From NCBI GenBank assembly GCA_030837315.1, contig JAUPKS010000083.1, positions 1-17,214 on the forward strand: a stretch of DNA of 17,214 bases, written 5' to 3'. The position numbers and the translations under genes were made by a program. This DNA is from Planctomycetota bacterium (GTDB lineage Bacteria; Planctomycetota; Brocadiia; Brocadiales; Brocadiaceae). Below are positions 2,411-15,955 of this stretch, in pieces; the first letter of the stretch is position 1, and each line of letters opens with the position of its first letter. The notes below the pieces were generated by a model. The model saw only the letters and a program-made list of their open reading frames with translations. It made no database searches and was not told the DNA's origin.

Positions 2411-2884
2411 ATGCCACAAGACATCCTGATCGATTTAAGTAGCTTGGATTTAAATAAGCCAACTATAGATATTGAGGCTGTTCGTGCCGTAATACCTCAC
2501 CGATATGAGATGGAACAATTGAACGGTATCATAAAATTCGACCCAGAACATAAGGTTATCGTGGGTTATAAAGATGTCTCAAATAGTGAATTTTGGGTGC
2601 GGGGGCACATCCCGGGTCGCCCTTTGATGCCGGGGGTAGTTATGCTCGAAGCCGCTGCACAGCTGTGTACCTATTATTACAAAAAAACCACTTTGGATGA
2701 TCGATTCCTTGGGTTCGGAGGTATTGATAAAGTTAAATTCCGCGGAAAGGTCATACCAGGCGACAAACTCATTCTTATCGCTAAAAACAAAGAGTTGCGT
2801 TCAAGAAGAGCTATCTTTGATACCCAAGGTGTGGTAAATGGTAACCTCGTATTTGAAGGGGTCATTATTGGGATGGTGGTGTGA
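2411..2884 (+). CDS. FabZ/FabA-family hot-dog fold 3-hydroxyacyl-ACP dehydratase paralog (157 aa)
   Basis: IPHRYEMEQL followed by the catalytic His/Glu motif GHIPGRPLMPGVVMLEAAAQL. An in-frame TGA at 2399-2401 fixes the ATG at 2411 as the only start. This is the second FabZ-like gene in the window. Confidence 0.8.
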   Translation: MPQDILIDLSSLDLNKPTIDIEAVRAVIPHRYEMEQLNGIIKFDPEHKVIVGYKDVSNSEFWVRGHIPGRPLMPGVVMLEAAAQLCTYYYKKTTLDDRFLGFGGIDKVKFRGKVIPGDKLILIAKNKELRSRRAIFDTQGVVNGNLVFEGVIIGMVV

Positions 2885-5490: not shown

Positions 5491-6924
5491 TTACATATGT
5501 ATGGGTCTATCAACCACCGCATGGGCAGCCTCCAGAATAGCCTCAGAAAGAGTAGGGTGAGGAAAAATAGTATTAAGCAATTCGTGAGCCGTTCCTTCCA
5601 AAATAGTAGCAAGCGACATACCCCACATTAATTCACCTACGTTAGGCCCAATAGCGTGCACTCCCAGTATCTCCCCATATTTATCATCCGTAACAATCTT
5701 TATAAATCCATCTTCATATTCACCATCAATAATTGCCTTACTATTTGCAATAAGGGGAAATTTTCCTACCCGTGTTTTGTAATTTCTTTTTTCCGCCTCC
5801 TCCTGAGTAAGTCCCATACTACCTACCTGCGGAAGGCAATACGTTACTCCAGGTATGTTCTGGTAATTTATTGGGGTGGTCTCTTTGCCGGCAATATGAG
5901 AAACGGCAAGCAGACCTTCATTCGATGCCTTATGAGCAAGGAGGGGAGGGCCTGTAATATCACCAATGGCAAAAAGCCCTGCTTTGTCAGTTTCCATAAC
6001 CTCATTGGTTTGAAGATATTTTCCTTTGAAACTTAGTGATAATTTTTCAATTCCAATGTCAGATAACGCAGGCTTTCTGCTTAAGGCGAGAAGTAAATGA
6101 TCGGCTTCTATAAATTCTTTATTTCCGTTTGCGATAGGGGATTGAGGTGCATTATTTTTTCTTTTTATCTCCACACGAACGCCATTATCTATTATGACCT
6201 TTTCTAAAGAGGTGTTTGTCTGGATATCGATACCTCTTTTGTTAAATATTTTACGCAAAGTGGCACTAATTTCTTTATCCTCTGCGGGAAGGACATCCTC
6301 CAAGAGTTCAATAATGGTTACCTTCGTTCCCAAGACATTAAAGAGGTGCGCGAATTCCGTTCCAACAGCACCGCCGCCCGCTATAATAATGGATTTTGGG
6401 ATTTCTTCCCACACTAATATATCGTCACTGGTAAGCACATATTTCCCATCATGAGGAATACTATCGGGAATGAGGGGAACGGAACCCGTAGCCAATATAA
6501 CATTTTTTGCAGTTATTTTGCCAACGTCCGTTCCATTTTTTTTTATTACGACACCCCCCGATGATGTGAGTTCTCCTTCACCTAAAAAAAGTTCTACACC
6601 ATTTTTCTTCAGAAGAAATTGTGTTCCTTGAAATAATCGATCAACTACAGCCTCTTTCCGTCTATGAAACTGGGGATAATTAATACTTACTTTATCAACA
6701 ACAATTCCAAATTCTCTTGCCCTTAGGAACCTCATGTAAAGATCTGATGAATGGAGGAGTACCTTCGTTGGGATACAACCCCAATGCAAACATGTACCGC
6801 CAACCTTGCCCTTTTCAATAAGAGCAGTCCTCATTCCTGACTGGGCGGCTTTTATTGCTGCAACATAACCGCCTGGCCCACCACCAATGATTATAAGATC
6901 AAAGGCAGAGATTCTCTCAGGCAA
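5491..6924 (-). CDS. lpdA: Dihydrolipoyl dehydrogenase (E3 component)
   Basis: FAD fold DLIIIGGGPGGYVAA, redox disulfide GGTCLHWGCIPTK, NAD fold IIAGGGAVGTEF, C-terminal HPHPTLSEA. The only possible start is the TTG at 6924 because the preceding codon is a stop. GGAGG sits 5 nt upstream. Confidence 0.92.
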   Translation of the reverse strand: MPERISAFDLIIIGGGPGGYVAAIKAAQSGMRTALIEKGKVGGTCLHWGCIPTKVLLHSSDLYMRFLRAREFGIVVDKVSINYPQFHRRKEAVVDRLFQGTQFLLKKNGVELFLGEGELTSSGGVVIKKNGTDVGKITAKNVILATGSVPLIPDSIPHDGKYVLTSDDILVWEEIPKSIIIAGGGAVGTEFAHLFNVLGTKVTIIELLEDVLPAEDKEISATLRKIFNKRGIDIQTNTSLEKVIIDNGVRVEIKRKNNAPQSPIANGNKEFIEADHLLLALSRKPALSDIGIEKLSLSFKGKYLQTNEVMETDKAGLFAIGDITGPPLLAHKASNEGLLAVSHIAGKETTPINYQNIPGVTYCLPQVGSMGLTQEEAEKRNYKTRVGKFPLIANSKAIIDGEYEDGFIKIVTDDKYGEILGVHAIGPNVGELMWGMSLATILEGTAHELLNTIFPHPTLSEAILEAAHAVVDRPIHM

Positions 6925-7053
6925 TTATCCCTCCTTTTTCCATGTAAACAGGATAACAAATATAAGTGCAATGGCAATGACCATAATTGCCTTTGGGCTA
7001 ATATCAGGGATAATTGATTTTTCCATAGAAAGGGATAACAATTTGCCTATCAT
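6925..7053 (-). CDS. Small (42 aa) single-pass membrane peptide, MIGKLLSLSMEKSIIPDISPKAIMVIAIALIFVILFTWKKEG, translationally coupled to lpdA
   Basis: Absent from the ORF track. The ATG at 7053 is preceded by AAGGAGGTG (10-nt spacer). It has one hydrophobic segment (AIMVIAIALIFVILF). Its TAA stop (6925-6927) abuts the lpdA TTG start, and its last codons (AAG GAG GGA) form the lpdA SD. Confidence 0.5.
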   Translation of the reverse strand: MIGKLLSLSMEKSIIPDISPKAIMVIAIALIFVILFTWKKEG

Positions 7054-7158: not shown

Positions 7159-7196
7159 AAAGGCACATCAGAATCTATATATTTTGATGTGCCTTT
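7159..7196 (-). terminator. Hairpin terminator candidate closing the six-gene lipid operon
   Basis: A 12-bp perfect stem, AAAGGCACATCA (7159-7170) with TGATGTGCCTTT (7185-7196), and a 14-nt loop. It begins 36 nt downstream of the radical SAM stop. The minus-strand tail is UUUAUAUUGUAAAUUU, U-rich but not a clean U-run. Confidence 0.5.
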
Positions 7197-7232: not shown

Positions 7233-8693
7233 CTATGTAGTGACCGTTTCCATAAGGGGTTTTGAAACAGTTACTGCACTTGATTTATACCAGTCGTTGT
7301 AATAATCACCTGAATCATACAACTCTTTTAAATTCTGTAAGACTTGTTCGAACACTTGTTTCCAATCAGAACCTACCCTGAATGCAAACATTGAATTTCT
7401 CGGATTTTTCGTTGTCTTAATAGAATTTCTGAAACGAGTCCTTAGGTTATCACTTGCGTAAATATGATCATAGATATATTGCATACCTTCAATAAAGTCT
7501 TCCAATGTCATATCTACAAAACGATGAACCACATGTGCCGTATCATAGTATTGCCAATCTTCCGGGTAATTTTTCCTGAATATCCTCTTTTCTGAATCTA
7601 ATCTCGCATAAAGTTGTGTCTTGGGGAATGGGCAGTTAATGCCAAAGGTCAGAATATCAATATTATTCTCCAATATAAAATCGGTCATTCTCTTAAAGGA
7701 ATCTTTGTCATCCCCATCTGCCCCAAACACCACTGACCCCCAAACAACTAAGCCAGCATTATGAATCTTTTGAATACAATCAAAATAACTATCGGTGCCC
7801 AACTTCAGGTTTACCTGCTTATTCATCTTCTTTAAAACAGTTTCGTTGGTAGATTCGATGCCGACAAGCATACCAAAATTGCCACTTTTGGCCATATAAT
7901 CCAGAGTTTCCGGATCCTGAGAAATATTCAACGCTGTGAATCCCAGCCAGTCTTTATGAATCCCACGCTCCACCATTCCCTTGAAAAGATCCCGCGCCCG
8001 CTCGTTTGACTTCTTACCATGGCCATAGAAGTTATCCTCTGCTAACATTAAACCCGTATAATCAGTTGCCGCCATCTCATCGAGCACATCTTCATAAGGT
8101 CTTTCCCTGAATTTCCTCCCTTGGAATGTGGGTACGCTACAGAAATCACAATAATTCGGACATCCCTTGGTTGTAACGATGGAAGAAAATTTATAATTAT
8201 ATTTTTTCTTCATAAGTTCCCGATTGGGATATACCTTTTTCATCAGGCTGAGGGGGGGTAATCCACCCTGGTAGACCTTTTTTAGTTTTCCTTCTTCAAA
8301 ATCTTTTATGACCTGTGGCCATACTTCTTCTGCTTCACCTACAAAAACAGAGTCAACGAAATTTGCAGCTTCTTCAGGCACTACGGATGCATGTATTCCA
8401 CCCATGATTACGGTCATACCCTTTTCCCTGCATGCAGTAGCAATCTTATATGCCCTGGGAGATTGGTAGGTAACAGCGGTAATACATACAAGGTCAACGG
8501 GCTTAAAGGTAATTTCTCCACTATCATCCATTGCTAATTCGAGATTCTCATCGATCACGTCAAATTCCCAATCGCCCGGCGTAAGGGCAGCAACATAAGC
8601 AAGATTCAATGGCATTTGGACGATTACCGTTATACTCTCTTCACCATGCCTGCCAGGCTTATGTGGATTAATCAACATCATTTTCCTTTTCAT
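7233..8693 (-). CDS. B12-binding-domain (class B) radical SAM enzyme, 486 aa
   Basis: The N-terminal roughly 130 aa show a Rossmann-like cobalamin-binding-domain pattern (VDLVCITAVTYQSPRAYKIA...VIMGGIHAS). Radical SAM cluster motif C178-x3-C182-x2-C185 (GCPNYCDFCS). GGAGG lies 10 nt upstream of the ATG, embedded in the last codons of the upstream gene. Confidence 0.85.
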   Translation of the reverse strand: MKRKMMLINPHKPGRHGEESITVIVQMPLNLAYVAALTPGDWEFDVIDENLELAMDDSGEITFKPVDLVCITAVTYQSPRAYKIATACREKGMTVIMGGIHASVVPEEAANFVDSVFVGEAEEVWPQVIKDFEEGKLKKVYQGGLPPLSLMKKVYPNRELMKKKYNYKFSSIVTTKGCPNYCDFCSVPTFQGRKFRERPYEDVLDEMAATDYTGLMLAEDNFYGHGKKSNERARDLFKGMVERGIHKDWLGFTALNISQDPETLDYMAKSGNFGMLVGIESTNETVLKKMNKQVNLKLGTDSYFDCIQKIHNAGLVVWGSVVFGADGDDKDSFKRMTDFILENNIDILTFGINCPFPKTQLYARLDSEKRIFRKNYPEDWQYYDTAHVVHRFVDMTLEDFIEGMQYIYDHIYASDNLRTRFRNSIKTTKNPRNSMFAFRVGSDWKQVFEQVLQNLKELYDSGDYYNDWYKSSAVTVSKPLMETVTT

Positions 8694-8700
8694 AAGTTGT

Positions 8701-10155
8701 TTACCTCCAATTCTCCATAATTAAATTAGCAACACCCCAACCAGAAGAGACTACAGCACAAACTCCAGGGCCTGGTCTTGTCCAATGACCGGTCAAATAC
8801 AGATTGTCAATTGGTGTCTTGGGTGAAAGCCTATTCTCCCATATTTGATCCGCAGTGACCGCCCAACCGTAGGCTGCCCCATTTGTGTTAGACGTATAAC
8901 GCTCCAATGTTTTTGAAGTAGCCGCATCTTTTACTTCAATATGCTTTTTTATGTCAGGAACGTATTCTTCTAATCGATTTATTGTCCTCTGCGTCATACA
9001 TTCTTTAAAAGATTTCCAACACTCATCATCGCTATATTTCCCTTCCTTTGTATAAGCAACAACAGAAATTATTTGTTTATTTGCTGGCGCAAGGGTAGGG
9101 AATATCGTTGTTGGAACCGATACGTACATCCACTCATCTTCGATGGAACTCATATCTGTAGCCGTATGATAAAATCCTCTTTTTAATTTGCTTAAATCTA
9201 TACCTTCACTTACACCCAAGTACAAAAGGAAAAAGGAACAACTTTCCTTCATCTCTTCAAGTTTTTGAAGGAATGGCAAAGGTAGTTTTCCCTGTAGCAA
9301 TTCAAAAAAAGTCCTATACGCATCAATATTTGAGACAATCAATTTTGATGGTATTTCATTGCCGTCTTCTACTTTTACGCCAATAGCGATTTTACCATCA
9401 TATAAGATTTGCTTTACCGCCGATTTTAGCATAATATGCCCGCCAAAATCAATAAATTTCTTAAAAATGGCGTTAGTAAACTCTTGAGTACCACCGGCAG
9501 GGAAAAAGGCGCCGTCTTTGAGATAATTGATCATCATTTGGCACATGCCAATAGCAGAAGCTTGAGCAGGGGGGAGCCCTATGTAACCCCACTGACCGGA
9601 AAGTATCATCTTGAGCTCCTCATTTTTAAAAAAGGCATTCAGCATCTCGCCATACGTCTGATCCTTATATCTATCTATAATTTGGCTTTTCTCATTGTTA
9701 AATGTAGCACGATAAAGCTTTATAAAATTCCGGAAGAAATCCTTTATTTTATCTCTTTCCAGAGGATAACGCTCCTGCAACCGGACGATGTATTCGTCCA
9801 AATCTGCTGGAATTTCAATGCTAAAATGAGGGAAGATCAGATGATCCATTGGGTCAAGAGGATAAAAATCCATTTCTATTCCTAATGTCTTAAAGCAGCG
9901 ACCGACAATACCCCATTTCCCGCAGCCCCCAATATGATGAACTGCCGCATCAAAGTTAAAGCCTTTTCTCTTAAAAGAAGTGCAATAACCACCGGGAATA
10001 GAGTGTTGTTCAAGAATGAGTACCTTTTTTCCCCCTTTGGCAAGAAAAGCAGCACAGACCAAACCTGCTATGCCTGCGCCAATTACAATGACATCATAAT
10101 AAGGATACAAACTATCCTTATTTGTGGATTGAATACATCGGTTGGAAGGCATCAT
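8701..10155 (-). CDS. FAD-dependent oxidoreductase of the phytoene desaturase (CrtI)-like family, 484 aa
   Basis: N-terminal dinucleotide fold YDVIVIGAGIAGLVCAAFLAKGGKKVLILEQ...PGG and a C-terminal LYLTGHWTRPGPGV...SG motif, typical of CrtI-like amine-oxidase-fold enzymes. The start lies 3 nt after the upstream stop. Confidence 0.8.
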   Translation of the reverse strand: MMPSNRCIQSTNKDSLYPYYDVIVIGAGIAGLVCAAFLAKGGKKVLILEQHSIPGGYCTSFKRKGFNFDAAVHHIGGCGKWGIVGRCFKTLGIEMDFYPLDPMDHLIFPHFSIEIPADLDEYIVRLQERYPLERDKIKDFFRNFIKLYRATFNNEKSQIIDRYKDQTYGEMLNAFFKNEELKMILSGQWGYIGLPPAQASAIGMCQMMINYLKDGAFFPAGGTQEFTNAIFKKFIDFGGHIMLKSAVKQILYDGKIAIGVKVEDGNEIPSKLIVSNIDAYRTFFELLQGKLPLPFLQKLEEMKESCSFFLLYLGVSEGIDLSKLKRGFYHTATDMSSIEDEWMYVSVPTTIFPTLAPANKQIISVVAYTKEGKYSDDECWKSFKECMTQRTINRLEEYVPDIKKHIEVKDAATSKTLERYTSNTNGAAYGWAVTADQIWENRLSPKTPIDNLYLTGHWTRPGPGVCAVVSSGWGVANLIMENWR

Positions 10156-10158
10156 GAA

Positions 10159-11403
10159 TTACTGTTTGTATTTTGAAATGATGAGGGATGAATTGTTTCC
10201 CAACCGTGAGAAGGTATTGATAAGGACGTTTTTGACAGGTAAGACCCTTGCGACATTGGCAACATAATCTAAATCACACTCAGGATCGCGCTCCTTATAA
10301 TTGATTGTGGGGGGAATTGTGTTGGTGTTTATGGACATCGAAGCAGCAATTGTTTGCATTGCACCTGAAGCATCATAGCATTCACCGGTCATGGATTTCA
10401 TGGCGGTTATGGGAATAAGATTCGCTCTCATACCAAAAACCTCTTTGATAACTCTGGTTTCCATCGCGTCACCGTAGACACCAGAATAAGCATTGGCAGA
10501 TATATAAGAAATATCATTTAGTGTAAGATTGGCATCCTTGATTGCACTCATGATAGCTCTTTTGCTACCGTCTATCTGATAACCCTTGCTCGTGGCCATT
10601 ATTGGATCAAATGCGGTCCCGTAACCCTTGATCTCTGCATAAATATGGGCATTTCTCTTAAGCGCATCTTCCAAGGTTTCGAGGATGACTAACGCCGATG
10701 CTTCACCAATAACCATCCCATTGCGCCTTTTATCAAACGGTGCGCAAATTTCGAAAGTTCCATCTTTACTTCCTGATAATATTTTGGAATTATGTGCGCC
10801 CCAAAATATGTCATGAGTTAATCCATGCACCCCCCCAGCAACAACAGCCTTTACACGACTCATTCTAAGAAAATCAGAGGCATAGATAATGGCATCAACA
10901 CTACTGGTAACACCATTTGATATAGTAGTACATAGTCCTGTAGCCTTGCAAAAAATAGAGGCGCGACTCGCGGGTGCATTCAGCACGGTATTAGGAAAAT
11001 CCATAGGATTTACATAATTAGGCCCTTCACGTAATGACTGAAAATCAAAGGAACTGATACTATCGATGCTTCCATACGTAGAACCTATAACTATACCTAA
11101 TTCATCTCCACTGTAAGTGTTATTTTCCAAGTTAGCATCTTTGATGGCCAAGACCGTTGCAGAAGATGCGAGGAGGGAGGTTCTATCGATATGGCGGATT
11201 CCTTTTTGTCCAAGATATATCTTGGCGTCGAAATCAGGAATCTCACCGGCATGTTTACTGGTATATTTACTTACATCGAATAAGGTAATAGGTTTAATAC
11301 CCGATACGCCATTGGTTAAATTATTCCAAAAAGTCTCTTTGTTGCCTCCAACGGGCGAGATAACCGAAACACCTGTAATAACAATCCGCGTTTTTTCCAT
11401 CAT
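10159..11403 (-). CDS. Ketosynthase paralog lacking the catalytic triad (KS-beta / chain-length-factor-like), 414 aa
   Basis: Thiolase-fold KS throughout (RIVITGVSVISPVG..., PFDKRRNGMVIGE, C-terminal NTFSRLGNNSSL). Aligned with the neighbouring intact KS, Cys163 becomes Val165 (codon 10909-10911), His296 becomes Asn304 and His333 becomes Glu341. The GAGGT SD favours the second ATG (11400) as the start. Confidence 0.8.
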   Translation of the reverse strand: MMEKTRIVITGVSVISPVGGNKETFWNNLTNGVSGIKPITLFDVSKYTSKHAGEIPDFDAKIYLGQKGIRHIDRTSLLASSATVLAIKDANLENNTYSGDELGIVIGSTYGSIDSISSFDFQSLREGPNYVNPMDFPNTVLNAPASRASIFCKATGLCTTISNGVTSSVDAIIYASDFLRMSRVKAVVAGGVHGLTHDIFWGAHNSKILSGSKDGTFEICAPFDKRRNGMVIGEASALVILETLEDALKRNAHIYAEIKGYGTAFDPIMATSKGYQIDGSKRAIMSAIKDANLTLNDISYISANAYSGVYGDAMETRVIKEVFGMRANLIPITAMKSMTGECYDASGAMQTIAASMSINTNTIPPTINYKERDPECDLDYVANVARVLPVKNVLINTFSRLGNNSSLIISKYKQ

Positions 11404-11455
11404 AAACCTCGTCTCTAAGATACTCGTTCACCGACAATTGCCGAACCATGAAGCT

Positions 11456-12676
11456 TTAATGTGTGAACTTTTTTACAACCAGACAGCTGTTGTTACCACC
11501 AAAGGCATGGGCATTATTCAATGCAATAGTTACCTGCTGTTTTCTCATAACATTTGGCACATAATCCAGATCACATTCCGGATCCGGGGTTTCATAATTA
11601 ATCGTGGGAGGGATAATATCGTTTTGAACTACTAAGGCGCAGGTGATAGCTTCTATGGCACTAGCAGCACCCATAGTATGGCCAATCATTGATTTTATTG
11701 AACTAATTGCAAGATGTTCTGGTTTATTCCCAAACACCTTTTTAATAGAGATCGTTTCTGCTTTGTCATTAGCAGGGGTGCCTGTTCCATGAGCGCTGAT
11801 GTACTGGACGTCTTCTGGTTTTAAATTTGCGCTTTTCAAGGCTTTTTTCATCGCGGATACAACACCTTCTCCGTCGGGATGGGGGATGGTAATATGGTAA
11901 GCATCACAACTAAGACCATAGCCAATAATTTCAGCATAGATATTTGCATTTCTCTTCACTGCGTGATCAAGTGATTCTAAAAGAAGCATGCCTGCACCCT
12001 CACCCACCATCATGCCTTTCCTGTTTTTGTCAAAAGGTTGACATATCTCAGGGGCAATGGCACCGAGCCTGGCAAAACCCGTATAAGCAACTTTTGAAAA
12101 AGGATCAGAACCTCCAGCCATCATCATGTCCACCCGTCCGAACTTAATTAAATCATACGCATATCCGATTGCATAATTACCTGCTGCACAGGCGGTAGGA
12201 ATAATAGTGTTGGGGCCTTTAAAACCAAACTCAATGGCAACATTAGCCGGAATATTATTGCACGGATGCATTAAAAACAAATCAGGGTCTACCTTATCTT
12301 CACCCTCTTTATACCGAATATAATTAACTTTTTCCAGAATTTGTATTTCACCTGCAGTCGTCCCTACAGAAACTCCAATCCTCTCTAAATCAATGTTATT
12401 CAGAATAAGTCCGGCATCATTTAAGGCAAGCTTTGTGGCTGCAATGGCAAATTGTGAAGCTTTGCCAATCTTTTTAAGAACGGCGTTTTTTATATAATCC
12501 GAATAATTAAAGTTTTTTACCTCACATCCCTTATGAACCTTATATCCGGAAGTATCAATGCATGATACTTCATCTACGCCAGATATCCCAGCAATAAGGG
12601 CATTCCAGAATACATCCTTCCCCGACCCAATAGGAGTGATCATTCCCACTCCTGTTATAACTACACGTTTATTCAT
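11456..12676 (-). CDS. fabF: Beta-ketoacyl-ACP synthase II-type ketosynthase with intact Cys-His-His triad, 406 aa
   Basis: Active-site PTACAAG (Cys163), [15 protein letters not shown] (His296), [15 protein letters not shown] (His333) and C-terminal [14 protein letters not shown], the canonical FabF/KAS II motifs. Confidence 0.88.
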
Positions 12677-12689
12677 AGGTATTATTGTA

Positions 12690-13145
12690 TCAACTAGACA
12701 CTAATGTGCTTTTATCTGCAATTCCAAAAGTCAAAGTTGCCTTAGCAACTGCTTTTTCATCAACCTTTACCGATGCCTGAACAATTGCTCCCTTCGATAC
12801 GATCTTTTCAACGCTTATCTCCACAAAGAGTTGATCGCCGGGGAAAACTGGTTTTGTAAACCGCGCATTATTAACTGATGCCAGCAGAAAAACTTCATCT
12901 CTATCTTTTTTAGTGGGGAGACTTTTTTTGAACAGGATGATCGAAGCTTGTGCCATCGCCTCAATAATGAGTACCCCAGGCATAATGGCAAAATCGGGGA
13001 AATGTCCAACAAAGACTGGCTCGTTGCCAGAGACATTTTTTACGCAGACAATTCTTTTTCCCTCTTCAAACTCAATAACTTTATCTATAAATAAAAAAGG
13101 ATATTTTTGAGGAAGAAGAGATCTGATTTCCTCGAAAAACATCAT
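12690..13145 (-). CDS. fabZ: 3-hydroxyacyl-ACP dehydratase
   Basis: 151 aa. [13 protein letters not shown] followed by [21 protein letters not shown], the canonical FabZ His/Glu motif. Confidence 0.9.
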
Positions 13146-13217
13146 CTTATATAGTCCGTCATCTCATTAATCACAAACGTATTACCTTTGAAATTGTCAC
13201 ACTTTCTATTTAACACA

Positions 13218-13487
13218 TTACGATGAAAATTTTCCGCTTTCCGATAGAACAGCCTTTGTTAAACCGATTGTAGCGCTCAATGATGTAATATCAACGAGCT
13301 TTTCTTCGGGAATTTGCACTTTAAATTTCTTTTCAATAAGTGCAAGAATTTCAAGGGCTAAAAGAGAATCTATTTCAAGATCTTTAAAGAAATTCGCATC
13401 TCTTTTATCCCAAATTTCCTTTTCATCTAATTCTGTAACCTCAGCAACTATGGCTGTTACACCTTTTTCAATTTCTTCAGTGTTCAA
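13218..13487 (-). CDS. Dedicated acyl carrier protein (89 aa from the TTG at 13487; the longest ORF extends to the TTG at 13502)
   Basis: Phosphopantetheine attachment motif LEIDSLLALEIL and an acidic helical protein of ACP size. GAGGAGGGG lies inside the longest ORF, 6 nt upstream of the TTG at 13487, so the shorter start is preferred. Confidence 0.85.
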   Translation of the reverse strand: MNTEEIEKGVTAIVAEVTELDEKEIWDKRDANFFKDLEIDSLLALEILALIEKKFKVQIPEEKLVDITSLSATIGLTKAVLSESGKFSS

Positions 13488-13554
13488 AATTCCCCTCCTC
13501 AAAAACAGACAGCGCTAACCATTAATCTGCTATGTCAACTATACTTAGCGGGAC

Positions 13555-13583
13555 ATGGTAGCAGACATAGGTTATATTGTCAA
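13555..13583 (-). promoter_or_regulatory. Candidate sigma70-type promoter TTGACA-17 nt-TACCAT for the ACP-led operon
   Basis: Minus strand: TTGACA at 13583-13578 and TACCAT at 13560-13555, about 55-70 nt upstream of the ACP start. Motif match only. Confidence 0.3.
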
Positions 13584-13770: not shown

Positions 13771-14382
13771 CTATTTCGTCCTTCTCGATGCCTTTTTTTC
13801 TTCTCGTAATTCTTGTCGTCTATATCGAGACAATTCTTTTAATGCCTTATATAGCTGCATTTCTAACATCGTTTCGTATTTAGATAATTCCACAATTCTG
13901 TTTTTGTTTTCAATTATTTTTAAAGCCTTTAATTGTGATAGTTCTTTATCAGTCCTTTTTCGCGTCCGGAAAAATCCCTGATCGTATTCCTGAATGCAAG
14001 ACCTATCATATTCCATAACCAGGTTTTCAATTTTCAAACATCGCTTCAATCGCCAGACACTTGAAACAATGTGATCCACGATAAGCAATTCAATCTCATC
14101 CGATGGTTTTAGCTCACCAGCAAGCCTATTTCTGATTCCATCAAGATCAGACTGTCTTTCCCCATCTAGTAATATTTCATCGCTAAAGATATATTGTTTT
14201 CCAGCATTTTCCAGAGATTTCATAGACTCTGATGGTACCTTAGTTTCTGTATTCTCTGTCTTTGCGAAGCTTACAATCCCGGCTGATTCAATGATGGTGT
14301 CCATTATCTTGTCTACTTTATCTTTGGCAGAAGACTCTCTGTTCTTTCCTCGTAAAACATCTTCCTTTAAGATCGTTGACAT
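13771..14382 (-). CDS. Hypothetical protein, 203 aa, highly charged and predicted helical
   Basis: Strong SD (AAGGAGG, 4-nt spacer) before the ATG at 14382. It contains ELLIVDHIVSSVWRLKRCLKIEN and a C-terminal LSKYETMLEMQLYKALKELSRYRRQ followed by a lysine/arginine-rich tail. No catalytic motif recognised. Confidence 0.7.
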   Translation of the reverse strand: MSTILKEDVLRGKNRESSAKDKVDKIMDTIIESAGIVSFAKTENTETKVPSESMKSLENAGKQYIFSDEILLDGERQSDLDGIRNRLAGELKPSDEIELLIVDHIVSSVWRLKRCLKIENLVMEYDRSCIQEYDQGFFRTRKRTDKELSQLKALKIIENKNRIVELSKYETMLEMQLYKALKELSRYRRQELREEKKASRRTK

Positions 14383-14643: not shown

Positions 14644-15279
14644 ATGAAAATTAACGAAATATTTAAGAGCATTCAAGGGGAGACGTCTTACGCAGGTTTG
14701 CCTTGCATATTTATACGCATAGCAGGTTGTAATTTACGCTGCAGTTATTGCGATACGATGTATGCCTATGACGATGGGGCGGAAATGACGGTCAATTTAA
14801 TTCTTGAAATTACCGATAACTTCAAATGCAAGTTTGTTTGTGTAACGGGCGGTGAACCTCTGTTGAATAAAGACACGCCTTTATTAATCAGCAAGTTGCT
14901 AGAAAGAAATTATATTGTATTAGTCGAAACAAATGGTAGCTACGATATACGTAAGATACCACAAAAAGCGATTAAAATTATGGATATCAAGTGTCCGGAC
15001 AGTAACATGAGTCATTTGATGGCTTGGGAGAATATTAACTATTTGACAAAATCAGACGAAATAAAATTTGTTTTAAATTCACGAAAAGATTATGACTGGG
15101 CAAAAATGTTAATACATAAATATCAGTTGCCCGATGTTGCCACGGTATTGCTAGGGGCAGTTTTTGGTGCAATCTCCCCAAGGTCGGTTGTCCAATGGAT
15201 TTTGGAGGATAATCTCGATGTGCGCTTTCAACTACAACTCCACAAATATATCTGGGAACCACAAACAAGGGGTGTTTAA
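14644..15279 (+). CDS. queE: 7-carboxy-7-deazaguanine synthase (radical SAM)
   Basis: N-terminal EIFKSIQGETSYAGLPCIFIRIAGCNLRCSYCDT (QGEG-like motif plus CxxxCxxC), followed by GGEPL. The length of 211 aa is typical of QueE. Confidence 0.9.
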   Translation: MKINEIFKSIQGETSYAGLPCIFIRIAGCNLRCSYCDTMYAYDDGAEMTVNLILEITDNFKCKFVCVTGGEPLLNKDTPLLISKLLERNYIVLVETNGSYDIRKIPQKAIKIMDIKCPDSNMSHLMAWENINYLTKSDEIKFVLNSRKDYDWAKMLIHKYQLPDVATVLLGAVFGAISPRSVVQWILEDNLDVRFQLQLHKYIWEPQTRGV

Positions 15280-15283
15280 TAAC

Positions 15284-15955
15284 GTGAAGGATGTTGCTAT
15301 TGTACTCGTTAGTGGTGGTATGGACAGTTGCGTAACCGTTGGTATTGCTAACGCACAATACCAGCTTGCGATGTTACACGTTAATTACGGACAGCGTACA
15401 GAAACACGAGAACTTAAAGCATTCCATGATATTGCAGCATACTACAAGGTTCCTAACGATAGGACACTCATATCTCATGTCGATTATTTAAGTAAAATTG
15501 GTGGATCAAGTTTAACGGACCAGCGCATGGATGTTCAAGATGCGCAGTTCCATAGCAAAGAAATTCCCACCTCGTATGTACCTTTCAGAAACACACTCTT
15601 CTTAACAATTGCCGTTGCGTGGGGAGAAGTTATCGGGGCAAAAAAAATATTTATCGGCGCAGTAGAACAAGACAGCCCTGGTTATCCCGATTGCAAGCCG
15701 ATCTATTATGAAATTTTCAATAAATTAATCAATGTGGGAACAAGGCCTACAACCCACATCAAGGTAGAAACACCGCTTATACGAAAGACTAAATCAGAAA
15801 TCGTAAAAATAGGTATTTCTATGAAAGTTCCATTCCATCTAAGTTGGTCTTGTTACAAGAATACTGACAAAGCATGCGGAATATGTCATAGCTGTTTTCT
15901 GCGGTTAAAAGCCTTTAAGGAATCCGATATTAATGACCCGATTGCTTATGTTTGA
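15284..15955 (+). CDS. queC: 7-cyano-7-deazaguanine (preQ0) synthase
   Basis: PP-loop VLVSGGMDSCV directly after the GTG at 15284, and the C-terminal zinc-cysteine cluster SCYKNTDKACGICHSCFLR. The track ORF start at 15164 overlaps queE by 116 nt. The GTG at 15284 is in frame, lies 4 nt after the queE stop, and gives a typical 223-aa QueC. Confidence 0.9.
   Translation: MKDVAIVLVSGGMDSCVTVGIANAQYQLAMLHVNYGQRTETRELKAFHDIAAYYKVPNDRTLISHVDYLSKIGGSSLTDQRMDVQDAQFHSKEIPTSYVPFRNTLFLTIAVAWGEVIGAKKIFIGAVEQDSPGYPDCKPIYYEIFNKLINVGTRPTTHIKVETPLIRKTKSEIVKIGISMKVPFHLSWSCYKNTDKACGICHSCFLRLKAFKESDINDPIAYV

What the first reader, a model, noticed from the sequence alone, without database searches (positions are those of the whole stretch)
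7233..13502. Six-gene ACP / FabZ / KS / KS-beta / CrtI-like / B12-radical-SAM operon: a dedicated lipid assembly-and-tailoring system resembling the proposed, still unproven, anammox ladderane locus
**Seen in the sequence.**
- Six co-oriented genes have intergenic gaps of 72, 13, 52, 3 and 7 nt.
- A TTGACA-17-TACCAT promoter candidate lies upstream (13555-13583) and a 12-bp hairpin lies downstream (7159-7196), so this is one transcription unit.
- The operon has its own carrier protein, a dehydratase and a KS/KS-beta pair, but no ketoreductase, enoylreductase, malonyl transferase or PPTase.
- It ends with a polyene-type flavin desaturase and a cobalamin radical SAM enzyme.

**Inference.** This is not housekeeping FAS. 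It looks like an iterative KS/CLF system that makes an ACP-bound, probably polyunsaturated, chain. That chain would then be oxidised and rearranged by radical chemistry.

**From memory.** The same gene composition (ACP, FabZ, two FabF, phytoene-desaturase-like, radical SAM) was singled out by comparative genomics in Candidatus Kuenenia stuttgartiensis as a candidate for ladderane lipid biosynthesis. To my knowledge no enzyme has been shown to build the cyclobutane ladder. The AT-rich composition is compatible with such an organism but does not prove it.
Basis: partly seen in the sequence, partly recalled or inferred. Interest (0 to 1): 0.88.

Follow-up and report, generated by a model that had tools for sequence, protein, structure and literature searches.

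The report
Known anammox candidate ladderane gene cluster
This six-gene operon is the Brocadia-type copy of the already published "Cluster I" (KustE3603-3608), which anammox bacteria are thought, without proof, to use to make ladderane lipids; the finding is real and correctly recognised but not new.

Summary
Six co-oriented minus-strand genes (7233-13487) encode ACP, FabZ, an active KS, a catalytically dead KS partner, a CrtI-like flavoprotein and a B12-domain radical SAM enzyme. The gaps are 72/13/52/3/7 nt, and the operon has no KR, ER, MAT or PPTase.

It does not merely resemble the anammox locus: it is its orthologue.
- The products are about 84-91% identical to crystallised amxACP, amxFabZ, amxFabF2 and amxFabFmut.
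- They carry the published signature residues.
- The region from the gene upstream of the ACP to ribosomal proteins L13/S9 is collinear with Ca. Brocadia sinica JPN1.
- The same six genes recur in Kuenenia and in a Ca. Bathyanammoxibiaceae MAG. The five of them that a truncated Brocadiaceae contig retains are in the same order.

The proposed promoter is invariant across three anammox organisms from two genera (this window, B. sinica, Kuenenia).

Function in ladderane synthesis remains unproven in the literature.

One new point emerged. Collinear sister clusters with an added ketoreductase occur in high-GC MAGs labelled Acidobacteria and Planctomycetota. This qualifies the published claim that the cluster is exclusive to ladderane producers.

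Verdict: already known; modest interest.

The parts
13555..13583 (-). Candidate sigma-70 promoter: TTGACA, 17 nt, TACCAT, with TG immediately upstream of the -10 (extended -10)
   Evidence: Sequence match. The hexamers and most of the spacer are invariant in the window, Ca. Brocadia sinica JPN1 and Kuenenia stuttgartiensis, within otherwise poorly conserved intergenic DNA (alignment A2). Function is inferred, not shown.
13218..13487 (-). amxACP orthologue (89 aa from the TTG at 13487; the ORF listing start at 13502 is probably 5 codons too long); DSL phosphopantetheine site present
   Evidence: Pfam PP-binding 7e-14. About 90% identical over 86 aa to PDB 7auf, the anammox-specific ACP. 92-93% identical to the Kuenenia and B. 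sinica copies. Start codon and Shine-Dalgarno are conserved.
12690..13145 (-). amxFabZ orthologue (3-hydroxyacyl-ACP dehydratase, anammox-specific type)
   Evidence: Pfam FabA 1e-28. PDB 8ayd at 1.4e-76, about 84% identity. His48/Glu62 retained. Ile69 replaces the canonical Gly, Thr replaces the canonical Lys/Arg in ARF-T-KPV, and Ile/Val replaces Arg at about position 115 (against the criteria in PMC10139942).
11456..12676 (-). amxFabF2 orthologue: active ketosynthase with Cys163/His296/His333
   Evidence: Pfam ketoacyl-synt N and C domains. About 91% identical to PDB 9s5h_B. Catalytic triad intact.
10159..11403 (-). amxFabFmut orthologue: catalytically dead KS partner (chain-length-factor-like); triad Cys>Val, His>Asn, His>Glu
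   Evidence: About 89% identical to PDB 9s5h_C. Triad substitutions shown in the alignment and match the published description.
8701..10155 (-). Phytoene-dehydrogenase-like FAD flavoprotein (KustE3607 orthologue)
   Evidence: Pfam Amino_oxidase and NAD_binding_8. NCBIfam crtI_fam 168 bits, below the cut-off of 238. Best solved relative is CrtI 4dgk, 1e-23. All 120 best database hits are Brocadiales, at 59-98% identity.
7233..8693 (-). Radical SAM enzyme with an N-terminal B12-binding domain (KustE3608 orthologue); CxxxCxxC at C178/C182/C185
   Evidence: Pfam B12-binding, Radical_SAM and DUF4070. 94% identical to B. sinica and 86% to Kuenenia. AF2 model with pLDDT 81. Nearest folds are AprD4, MgmA, TokK, CysS, TsrM and OxsB at 13-18% identity.
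7159..7196 (-). Stable hairpin 37 nt after the rSAM stop codon; possible terminator or transcript-stabilising element
   Evidence: 12-13 bp stem, -21 kcal/mol, z = -3.7. Same stem with a different loop in B. sinica. Absent in Kuenenia. Not called by the terminator scan.

Best explanation
The locus is the orthologue of anammox 'Cluster I' (Kuenenia KustE3603-3608). It comes from an uncultured Brocadiaceae bacterium closest to Ca. Brocadia.

**How it most likely works.**
1. A conserved sigma-70-type promoter drives one mRNA for six proteins. (Inferred.)
2. A dedicated carrier protein (amxACP) holds the growing acyl chain. Its phosphopantetheinyl transferase is encoded elsewhere; in anammox genomes a PPTase sits in the paralogous kuste2802-2805-type cluster.
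3. The active KS (amxFabF2) and its dead partner (amxFabFmut) form a KS/CLF-like heterodimer. The heterodimer decarboxylates malonyl-amxACP to prime synthesis and elongates short chains. (Shown in vitro for the about 90% identical B. fulgida proteins.)
4. amxFabZ dehydrates short (C6-C8) 3-hydroxyacyl-amxACP and ignores the housekeeping ACP. (Shown for the Scalindua enzyme.)
5. Keto- and enoyl-reduction must be borrowed from enzymes encoded elsewhere. (Inferred.)
6. The CrtI-like flavoprotein and the B12-domain radical SAM enzyme then tailor the ACP-bound chain by desaturation or isomerisation and by radical C-H activation and C-C bond formation. (Entirely inferred.)

The pathway is the leading, but unproven, candidate for making ladderane lipids or a precursor of them. 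The published biochemical data fit best a role in making or joining the short linear C6-C8 part (a 'type b' scheme). They fit less well the folding of a long polyene.
For: **Identity.**
- The four FAS-like products are about 84-91% identical to crystallised amxACP, amxFabZ, amxFabF2 and amxFabFmut.
- The published signature residues are all present: FabZ Ile69, Thr and Val; FabFmut Val/Asn/Glu.

**Synteny.**
- Gene order is identical in Kuenenia CP049055, B. sinica JPN1 and a Bathyanammoxibiaceae MAG (L003). A Brocadiaceae contig (L001) is cut within FabZ and shows the other genes in the same order.
- The region is collinear with B. sinica from the gene upstream of the ACP to ribosomal proteins L13/S9.

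**Distribution.**
- Every named hit among the top 120 PDH hits is Brocadia, Jettenia, Kuenenia, Scalindua or otherwise labelled Brocadiaceae or Planctomycetes.
- Core rSAM orthologues at 64% identity or more that carry names are all labelled Brocadiales or Planctomycetes (tree).

**Regulation.** The promoter is a conserved footprint.

**Mechanism, from papers.**
- KS/CLF heterodimer, malonyl-ACP decarboxylation and C6/C8 preference.
- amxFabZ prefers C6-C8 and is specific for amxACP.
- The cluster is the second most highly expressed FAS-type cluster in Kuenenia.
Against: - No experiment links any gene of the cluster to ladderanes.
- Anaerobic expression of kuste3603-3608 in E. coli gave no ladderanes and no new fatty acids. 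kuste3607 did not replace CrtI.
- Collinear sister clusters exist in high-GC MAGs labelled Acidobacteria, Vicinamibacteria and Planctomycetota, which are not known ladderane producers. The architecture alone therefore does not imply ladderanes.
- The window itself carries no anammox marker such as hydrazine synthase. The host's identity rests on protein identity and synteny.
- Co-transcription was not tested.
- Cobalamin binding by the rSAM is inferred from a Pfam domain. The best structural match, AprD4, has the same fold but, from my own knowledge (not checked here), does not use cobalamin.
Confidence: 0.9

Rival explanations
1. It is Cluster I, but Cluster I does not build the cyclobutane ladder. 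Instead it makes a different specialised short- or medium-chain lipid or polyketide, or only a generic precursor. That product is also made by non-anammox bacteria. Ladder formation would depend on other anammox loci, such as the kuste3335-3352 or kuste2802-2805 clusters.
For: - Collinear clusters ACP-FabZ-KS-dead KS-PDH-B12 rSAM plus KR occur in four independent high-GC contigs: L086, L091, L092 and a JGI 3300056388 contig. Identity to the window ranges from 36% to 58% across all six proteins.
- Their FabZs share the bulky residue at the 'amx-specific' Ile69 position, and their KS partners also lack the catalytic Cys (L086 tested).
- Source labels on their relatives are Acidobacteria, Vicinamibacteria and Planctomycetota.
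- Heterologous expression of kuste3603-3608 gave no ladderanes.
Against: - Published work reports the anammox version as conserved in all ladderane producers examined and highly expressed. Here I checked its presence and gene order in Brocadia, Kuenenia and Bathyanammoxibiaceae loci, and in a truncated Brocadiaceae contig.
- Sister clusters always add a KR and are only 36-58% identical, so they may make something else.
- No lipid data exist for the sister-cluster organisms, so they cannot be said to lack ladderane-like lipids.
- The negative result in E. coli may reflect insoluble or unreconstituted rSAM.
Confidence: 0.25
2. The KS/CLF pair iteratively builds a long (C16-C20) ACP-bound chain. 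The CrtI-like enzyme desaturates it to a polyene. The radical SAM enzyme then folds the polyene into the ladder by a radical cascade.
For: - The gene content allows it: a desaturase-like flavoprotein plus a radical enzyme.
- It is one of the three schemes still listed in reviews.
Against: - amxFabZ hardly turns over C10-C12 substrates, and the KS heterodimer reacts poorly with C16.
- No polyunsaturated intermediates have been found in anammox cells or in the E. coli expression strain.
- Isotope labelling does not match this scheme.
- kuste3607 shows no CrtI activity.
- A single polycyclisation is considered energetically unfavourable.
Confidence: 0.1
3. An ordinary lipid or pigment locus: either housekeeping type II fatty acid synthesis, or an aryl-polyene or aromatic type II PKS cluster.
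For: - The KS scores 473 bits on the NCBIfam fabF model, close to its cut-off of 494. The FabZ just passes the fabZ model at 157 against 155.
- Precomputed Pfam hits list ApeI/ApeP-like models on the FabZ.
Against: - The second KS has no catalytic triad.
- The published amxFabZ rejects the housekeeping ACP.
- Anammox genomes have a separate canonical FAS cluster, kustd1386-1391.
- The window has no KR, ER, MAT, thioesterase, cyclase/aromatase or export genes.
- PDH and a B12-domain rSAM are not, to my knowledge, part of FAS II or aryl-polyene clusters.
Confidence: 0.02

Closest known systems
Anammox 'Cluster I', Ca. Kuenenia stuttgartiensis KustE3603-3608 (Rattray 2009 PMC2649909; Javidpour 2016 PMC4790861; Dietl 2023 PMC10139942; Granatino 2026 bioRxiv 10.64898/2026.05.19.726425)
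   Same: Same six genes in the same order and orientation. Identity to Kuenenia is 69-92% and to B. sinica 80-94%. The signature residues are the same and the promoter footprint is conserved.
   Different: It comes from a different, uncultured Brocadia-like species. The exact proteins were found only in metagenomes. Upstream neighbours differ from Kuenenia. Nothing differs at the level of the system.
Paralogous anammox cluster kuste2802-2805 (PPTase, B12 rSAM, FabF, non-canonical KS)
   Same: It has a B12-domain rSAM of the same family (51-55% identical), followed by an active KS and a dead KS partner (L087, L002, L004).
   Different: The rSAM comes first. There is no ACP, FabZ or PDH. It is accompanied by a PPTase and, in L087, by an OYE-type reductase and an enoyl-CoA hydratase.
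Sister clusters in non-Brocadiales MAGs (L086 'Acidobacteria bacterium 13_1_40CM_2_60_7', L091 Planctomycetota MAG, L092, JGI 3300056388 contig)
   Same: Same order: ACP-FabZ-KS-dead KS-PDH-B12 rSAM. In the one tested (L086), the FabZ has a bulky residue at the Ile69 position and the KS partner lacks Cys.
   Different: Only 36-58% identical. GC is 60-70%. A ketoreductase always follows the rSAM and a FabH is often nearby. The product and the lipids of the hosts are unknown. I found no description of these clusters in the searched literature.
Type II polyketide KS/CLF heterodimers (actinorhodin ActI-ORF1/2; ishigamide Iga11/Iga12)
   Same: Adjacent genes for an active KS and an inactive homologue that shapes the acyl tunnel. 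The heterodimer decarboxylates malonyl-ACP. PDB 1tqy and 6kxd appear among the hits.
   Different: The dead subunit has Val where, from my own knowledge, aromatic-PKS CLFs carry the priming Gln. The closest sequence relatives are FabF enzymes. There are no cyclase or aromatase genes.
Class B (B12-domain) radical SAM enzymes: TokK, CysS, TsrM, MgmA, OxsB; and AprD4
   Same: Same two-domain architecture of an N-terminal Rossmann-like domain plus a radical SAM barrel (TMq 0.58-0.65). The CysS crystal structures in the hit list were solved with pantetheinylated substrates.
   Different: Only 13-18% identity. It falls below every NCBIfam cut-off, including TIGR04072 'rSAM_ladder_B12' at 88 bits against 360. 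The reaction it catalyses is unknown.
CrtI-family phytoene desaturases
   Same: FAD Rossmann fold plus an amine-oxidase fold. The best solved relative is CrtI 4dgk.
   Different: It falls below the crtI_fam cut-off, at 168 bits against 238. The Kuenenia orthologue does not complement CrtI.
Carbocycle-forming carrier-protein systems: cispentacin AmcB-H (type II PKS-like) and jawsamycin Jaw5 (radical SAM cyclopropanase)
   Same: A KS-like pair and a FabZ-like hot-dog enzyme. NCBIfam AmcF scores 242 bits on the KS and AmcE 107 bits on the FabZ. Jaw5 is cited as a precedent for radical SAM ring formation on a growing acyl chain.
   Different: Both NCBIfam hits are below their cut-offs of 325 and 140. 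The ring sizes and chemistry differ. This is an analogy only.

Membership tests
Anammox Cluster I (KustE3603-3608 type) | Six co-oriented genes in the order ACP, FabZ, active FabF, mutated FabF, phytoene-dehydrogenase-like, B12-domain radical SAM | tested here: met
   The order is identical in Kuenenia, B. sinica and L003; L001 is cut within FabZ and shows the remaining genes in the same order.
Anammox Cluster I (KustE3603-3608 type) | amxFabZ signature: catalytic His/Glu retained; Ile in place of the tunnel Gly (Ile69); Ser/Thr at position 96 and Val/Ile at position 115 in place of the basic ACP-docking residues (PMC10139942) | tested here: met
Independently, about 84% identity to PDB 8ayd.
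Anammox Cluster I (KustE3603-3608 type) | amxFabFmut: catalytic Cys replaced by Val (Thr in Scalindua), and both His replaced by Asn, Glu or Cys | tested here: met
   Val, Asn and Glu at the three positions. About 89% identity to PDB 9s5h_C. Criteria taken.
Anammox Cluster I (KustE3603-3608 type) | amxFabF2 with an intact Cys-His-His triad, encoded next to amxFabFmut | tested here: met
   C163/H296/H333. About 91% identity to 9s5h_B.
Anammox Cluster I (KustE3603-3608 type) | Dedicated amxACP distinct from the housekeeping ACP | tested here: met
   About 90% identical to PDB 7auf, against 35 bits or less for canonical ACPs. Below the NCBIfam acyl_carrier cut-off, at 48.8 bits against 70.45.
Anammox Cluster I (KustE3603-3608 type) | The host is an anammox (Brocadiales) bacterium | tested here: met
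   Supported by affinity only. The region from the gene upstream of the ACP to L13/S9 is collinear with Ca. B. sinica JPN1 at 69-94% aa identity. All named best hits are Brocadia, Jettenia, Kuenenia or Scalindua. There are no hzs or hdh genes in the window, so anammox metabolism itself was not seen.
Anammox Cluster I (KustE3603-3608 type) | The host produces ladderane lipids, and the cluster is required for them | not testable with these tools
   Lipid analysis and genetics are needed. The literature states that there is no direct evidence.
Type II PKS KS/CLF pair | An active KS and an inactive partner encoded side by side, forming a heterodimer | tested here: met
   Adjacency and triad state were checked here. 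Heterodimer formation is shown only for the B. fulgida orthologues.
Type II PKS KS/CLF pair | The CLF carries Gln at the position of the KS active-site Cys (aromatic PKS hallmark; from my own knowledge) | tested here: not met
   Val at that position.
NCBIfam TIGR04072 rSAM_ladder_B12 (lipid biosynthesis B12-binding/radical SAM protein) | Score at or above the curated cut-off of 360 bits | tested here: not met
   88.1 bits. The window enzyme belongs to a different, unmodelled family.
CrtI phytoene desaturase family (TIGR02734) | Score at or above the cut-off of 238 bits, and phytoene desaturase activity | tested here: not met
   168.3 bits. The Kuenenia orthologue is inactive in a lycopene assay (PMC4790861).
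Housekeeping FAS II | FabF and ACP reach the equivalog cut-offs, and KR, ER and MAT are in the cluster | tested here: not met
   KS scores 472.8 against 493.75, KS-beta 333.2 against 493.75, and ACP 48.8 against 70.45. No FabG, FabI or FabD in the window.
Aryl-polyene cluster | KS/CLF, ACPs and ApeI/ApeP dehydratases together with KR, thioesterase, acyltransferases and LolA/MMPL-type export genes (from my own knowledge) | tested here: not met
   Only the KS pair, one ACP and one hot-dog dehydratase are present. None of the other genes is in the window.

The most novel reading that the evidence does not exclude
The Cluster I design is older and wider than anammox. Collinear ACP-FabZ-KS-dead KS-PDH-B12 rSAM clusters, with an added ketoreductase, occur in high-GC soil and sediment MAGs labelled Acidobacteria and Planctomycetota.

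In the strongest form of this reading, those bacteria make ladderane-like (cyclobutane or otherwise strained-ring) lipids. They could then serve as non-anammox model systems for the PDH and radical SAM chemistry.

The weaker form is that the architecture is not exclusive to ladderane producers, contrary to the published statement. I consider that form likely (about 0.8).
Probability: 0.1. Interest if true: 0.85.

Novelty: already known. Interest (0 to 1): 0.3.

Why it matters
Ladderane lipids are the only natural products with linearly fused cyclobutane rings. How cells build them has been an open question since 2002. This cluster is the field's prime suspect, so recognising it from raw sequence is a correct call.

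The window, however, adds only one more orthologue of a cluster that has been compared, expressed and partly crystallised already. It does not make the open question more testable.

Three small additions came out of this check:
1. A promoter footprint conserved across this window, B. sinica and Kuenenia.
2. A corrected ACP start.
3. The observation that the same gene order exists, at 36-58% identity and with an added ketoreductase, in MAGs outside Brocadiales.

If confirmed, the third point weakens the argument that the cluster is 'exclusive to ladderane producers'. It also offers comparative material: residues conserved only in the anammox versions, and possibly more tractable hosts.

Tried and rejected
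- **Genome-collection scan with an rSAM alignment.** Only four Brocadiales loci were recovered, so the scan is not a complete phyletic profile. I replaced it with protein searches and twelve contig look-ups.
- **Promoter and terminator consensus scans.** Counts equal the shuffle expectation, so they carry no weight alone. The hairpin was not called.
- **Rfam and tRNA scans of the whole window.** Nothing was found at E <= 0.1. In particular, no cobalamin riboswitch precedes the operon.
- **NCBIfam 'rSAM_ladder_B12'.** I considered it as the family of the rSAM and rejected it, at 88 bits against a cut-off of 360.
- **In-frame 42-aa ORF ahead of the Lpd gene.** I checked whether it hides a recoded stop, such as selenocysteine. 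Rejected: the stop is TAA in the window and in Kuenenia, and the ORF has its own Shine-Dalgarno. Its last codons form the Shine-Dalgarno for the Lpd TTG start.
- **rSAM structure prediction and fold search.** These place the enzyme among class-B-type radical SAM enzymes but do not reveal its chemistry.
- **Literature searches for a prior description of the sister clusters.** I found only generic antiSMASH 'ladderane-type' calls in non-anammox genomes.
- **Taxonomy of the sister-cluster contigs.** I could not check this independently. It rests on submitters' labels and GC content.

Full report
**1. Observation**

The six minus-strand ORFs and the gaps of 72, 13, 52, 3 and 7 nt are exactly as described. 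Pfam assigns:
- PP-binding to 13218-13502;
- FabA-like to 12690-13145;
- ketoacyl-synthase N and C domains to both 11456-12676 and 10159-11403;
- Amino_oxidase/NAD_binding_8 to 8701-10155;
- B12-binding plus Radical_SAM (plus a weak DUF4070) to 7233-8693.

None of the six carries a KR, ER, malonyl-transferase or PPTase domain. The first KS keeps Cys163/His296/His333. The second has Val, Asn and Glu at those positions. The rSAM has CxxxCxxC at C178/C182/C185.

One correction: the ACP very probably starts at the TTG at 13487, giving 89 aa. That codon and the GGAGG before it are invariant in three anammox organisms, and the B. sinica gene is called at 89 aa.

**2. What it is**

The products match solved structures of the anammox-specific enzymes far better than anything else:

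| Product | Best solved match | Score | Approx. identity | Next best |
|---|---|---|---|---|
| FabZ | 8ayd | 1.4e-76 | 84% | canonical FabZs, 3e-34 |
| ACP | 7auf | 1.5e-44 | 90% | canonical ACPs, about 1e-7 |
| Dead KS | 9s5h_C | 817 bits | 89% | – |
| Active KS | 9s5h_B | 851 bits | 91% | – |

Chains 9s5h_B and 9s5h_C are the two chains of the amxFabF2/amxFabFmut heterodimer described for Ca. Brocadia fulgida in bioRxiv 10.64898/2026.05.19.726425.

That paper, PMC10139942 and PMC4790861 define 'Cluster I' as KustE3603-3608. Its genes are amxACP, amxFabZ, FabF, non-canonical FabF, a phytoene-dehydrogenase homologue and a cobalamin radical SAM enzyme. The published amxFabZ signatures are all present: Ile instead of the tunnel Gly, Ser/Thr and Val/Ile instead of two basic ACP-docking residues. 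So is the amxFabFmut triad pattern.

**3. Source and synteny**

The exact rSAM protein is found only on metagenome contigs (JGI 3300048564 and 3300048074, and two Logan runs). These contigs reproduce the whole window.

The nearest named genome is Ca. Brocadia sinica JPN1 (BAFN01000001). Gene order there is: hypothetical, ACP, FabZ, KS, KS-beta, PDH, rSAM, 42-aa ORF, Lpd, glucan phosphorylase, HAD hydrolase, second FabZ-like gene, L13, S9. This matches the window, with one extra PNPOx gene in B. sinica. Amino-acid identities are 69-94%.

- Kuenenia CP049055 has the same six genes at 69-92% identity, with different upstream neighbours.
- A Ca. Bathyanammoxibiaceae MAG (RIFCSPHIGHO2_12_FULL_52_36; family assignment from PMC9723696) has the same six genes.
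- A Brocadiaceae contig from Hainich groundwater (L001) begins within FabZ, so the ACP cannot be assessed there; its remaining genes are in the same order.
- Downstream flanks in these last two are unrelated.

Within the Brocadiales loci examined, the conserved unit is therefore exactly these six genes. The 120 best database hits of the PDH are all Brocadiales: Brocadia 74-82%, Jettenia 75%, Kuenenia 70-71%, Scalindua 59-61%.

**4. Regulatory elements**

Sigma-70-like matches are no more frequent than in shuffled sequence (25 against 26), so the motif alone proves nothing. I aligned the ACP upstream regions of the window, B. sinica and Kuenenia. The alignment shows one invariant island: ATTATTGACAA, a 17-nt spacer that is mostly conserved, then TGCTAC(C/T)ATG. 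The rest of the spacer DNA is poorly conserved. This is good comparative support for the proposed -35 and extended -10 elements.

The hairpin after the rSAM gene is stable (-21 kcal/mol, z = -3.7). B. sinica shares its stem, with a different loop. Kuenenia has only a 58-nt gap without it, and the hairpin lacks a proper U-tract. Whether transcription stops there or continues into the next two genes is open.

**5. Distribution beyond the orthologues**

The rSAM family splits into three groups (NJ tree).

*(a) Core Brocadiales clade, at 64% identity or more.*

*(b) Paralogues at 51-55% in anammox genomes.* These have the order PPTase, rSAM, KS, dead KS, followed by OYE reductase and enoyl-CoA hydratase (L087, L002, L004). 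This is the published kuste2802-2805 cluster. L090 holds a lone copy.

*(c) Sequences at 54-65% from non-Brocadiales contigs.* Among these, four independent contigs carry ACP, FabZ, KS, dead KS, PDH and B12 rSAM in the window's order, always followed by a short-chain dehydrogenase (KR) and often with FabH nearby:

| Locus | GC | Label or source |
|---|---|---|
| L086 | 60% | NCBI 'Acidobacteria bacterium 13_1_40CM_2_60_7' |
| L091 | 70% | Planctomycetota MAG |
| JGI 3300056388 contig | – | no DNA held |
| L092 | 68% | ENA ERZ25072999 |

- The contig that carries L091 also holds a second KS / dead-KS / B12-rSAM module (L089). This parallels the pairing of Cluster I with kuste2802-2805 in anammox genomes.
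- Identities of the sister clusters to the window are: ACP 50-57%, FabZ 48-49%, KS 55-58%, dead KS 36-39%, PDH 40-44%, rSAM 56-58%.
- In L086, the one sister locus aligned, the FabZ also has a bulky residue at the 'Ile69' position and the KS partner lacks the Cys.
- A search with the L086 PDH found about 36 clusters at 57-100% identity. All come from MAGs or metagenomes, none from isolates. The only names are Acidobacteria, Vicinamibacteria and Planctomycetota.
- L088 (GC 66%) embeds the same core in a larger type II-PKS-like cluster with a second B12 rSAM, extra KS/CLF pairs, a cyclase, ECH and KR.
- L094 has the rSAM-first architecture.
- More distant Geobacter and Thermodesulfobacteriota loci pair a roughly 34%-identical rSAM with KS genes or with a PDH. 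This recalls the Desulfotalea synteny noted by Rattray et al..

PMC10139942 states that the cluster is 'encountered exclusively' in ladderane producers. At the level of gene architecture, that statement needs qualification. I found no paper describing these sister clusters. I found only loose antiSMASH 'ladderane' calls in other phyla.

**6. How it most likely works**

*Shown, for close orthologues, in the cited papers:*
- amxFabF2 and amxFabFmut are inactive alone. Together they form a KS/CLF-like heterodimer that decarboxylates malonyl-amxACP and reacts preferentially with C6-C8 acyl probes. Tunnel residues of the dead subunit tune that preference.
- amxFabZ dehydrates C6 much faster than C8, and C8 much faster than C10-C12, on 3-hydroxyacyl-amxACP. 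It does not accept the housekeeping ACP.
- kuste3607 is not a phytoene desaturase in vivo. The six Kuenenia genes expressed anaerobically in E. coli give no new fatty acids.

*Inferred:*
- KR and ER steps are supplied in trans.
- The flavoprotein desaturates or isomerises an ACP-bound chain.
- The rSAM does radical C-H activation and C-C bond formation.

The rSAM model (pLDDT 81) resembles AprD4, MgmA, TokK, CysS, TsrM and OxsB at 13-18% identity. It fails every curated family cut-off, including TIGR04072 'rSAM_ladder_B12'. Its reaction cannot be read from homology.

Of the three published schemes, the authors of the enzyme studies consider 'type b' the easiest fit. In that scheme, the short linear part is made on amxACP and joined to a separately made ladder.

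**7. Novelty and score**

This is a correct recognition of a published, actively studied candidate cluster in one more, uncultured, Brocadia-like organism: already known.

The cluster matters because ladderane biosynthesis is unsolved, but this copy does not change what can be tested. The conserved promoter, the ACP start and the sister clusters outside Brocadiales are modest additions. I score interest at 0.3.

The most novel reading not excluded is that the sister clusters make ladderane-like lipids outside anammox bacteria. This is unlikely (about 0.1) but would be important.

Noticed in passing
L086:5476-12338; L091:5859-12655; L092:5845-12739; JGI 3300056388 contig: Collinear sister clusters with the order ACP-FabZ-KS-dead KS-PDH-B12 rSAM-KR occur in high-GC (60-70%) contigs labelled Acidobacteria or Planctomycetota. 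They are 36-58% identical to the window proteins. This contradicts the published statement that the cluster occurs only in ladderane producers. The taxonomy and lipids of these hosts were not verified.
   Followed up: partly
L088:4101-21437: A GC 66% metagenome contig embeds the same core (ACP, FabZ, KS, dead KS, PDH, B12 rSAM) in a large type II-PKS-like cluster. The cluster also has a second B12 rSAM, an FGE-sulfatase-like gene, a polyketide cyclase, a muconolactone-isomerase-like gene, two more KS pairs, a ferredoxin, ECH, KR and a FabH/CHS.
   Followed up: no
window 6925-7053 (-) and 5491-6924 (-): A conserved 42-aa single-pass membrane peptide (MIGKLLSLSMEKSIIPDISPKAIMVIAIALIFVILFTWKKEG) is encoded here. 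Its TAA stop abuts the TTG start of a bona fide dihydrolipoyl dehydrogenase (TIGR01350, 509 bits), and its last codons form that gene's Shine-Dalgarno. The pair lies directly downstream of the rSAM gene in the window and Kuenenia, and after one extra PNPOx gene in B. sinica. Codon differences between the window and B. sinica are 15 synonymous against 1 non-synonymous. The pair is not present after the cluster in L001 or L003. Possible co-transcription with the cluster was not tested.
   Followed up: partly
L087:9618-16966; L002:10001-14271; L004:10001-14185; L089:6579-11431; L094:10001-16113: There is a paralogous module with the B12 rSAM first, then KS and dead KS. It is accompanied variously by a PPTase, an OYE reductase, ECH, KR or a muconolactone-isomerase-like gene. 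In anammox genomes it is the kuste2802-2805 cluster. One non-anammox Planctomycetota contig (ERZ926026 k127_317803) carries both this module (L089) and the six-gene-plus-KR cluster (L091).
   Followed up: partly
window 2411-2884 (+): A second FabZ-like hot-dog dehydratase (Pfam FabA and ApeI-like) lies here. It is 33% identical to the amxFabZ and falls below the NCBIfam fabZ cut-off, at 106 bits against 155. It sits about 4.3 kb beyond the cluster on the opposite strand. B. sinica has it at the same place (90% identity), but it is not near the cluster in Kuenenia, L001 or L003.
   Followed up: partly
window 13771-14382 (-): A 203-aa Lys/Glu/Arg-rich protein with no Pfam or NCBIfam match is encoded directly upstream of the cluster on the same strand. 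It is conserved at that position in B. sinica (69% identity) but not in Kuenenia.
   Followed up: no
window 13488-13502: The ORF listing start for the ACP (TTG at 13502) overlaps the Shine-Dalgarno. The conserved TTG at 13487 is the likely start. Some metagenome gene calls use 94 aa and others 89 aa.
   Followed up: yes
L093:11557-11982: Ca. B. sinica has an extra PNPOx-like (pyridoxamine-phosphate-oxidase fold) gene inserted between the post-rSAM hairpin and the 42-aa ORF. The window has only a 179-nt spacer at that position.
   Followed up: no
window 11456-13145 (-): There is sub-threshold NCBIfam similarity to the cispentacin ring-forming system. The KS scores 242 bits on AmcF (cut-off 325) and the FabZ 107 bits on the cyclizing decarboxylase AmcE (cut-off 140). 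This is an analogy for carbocycle formation on a carrier protein, not membership.
   Followed up: no
window 14644-15955 (+): queE and queC (7-deazaguanine synthesis) lie next to each other here and are transcribed divergently from the cluster region. The listed QueC ORF start (TTG at 15164) overlaps queE; the metagenome gene call starts at 15272.
   Followed up: no
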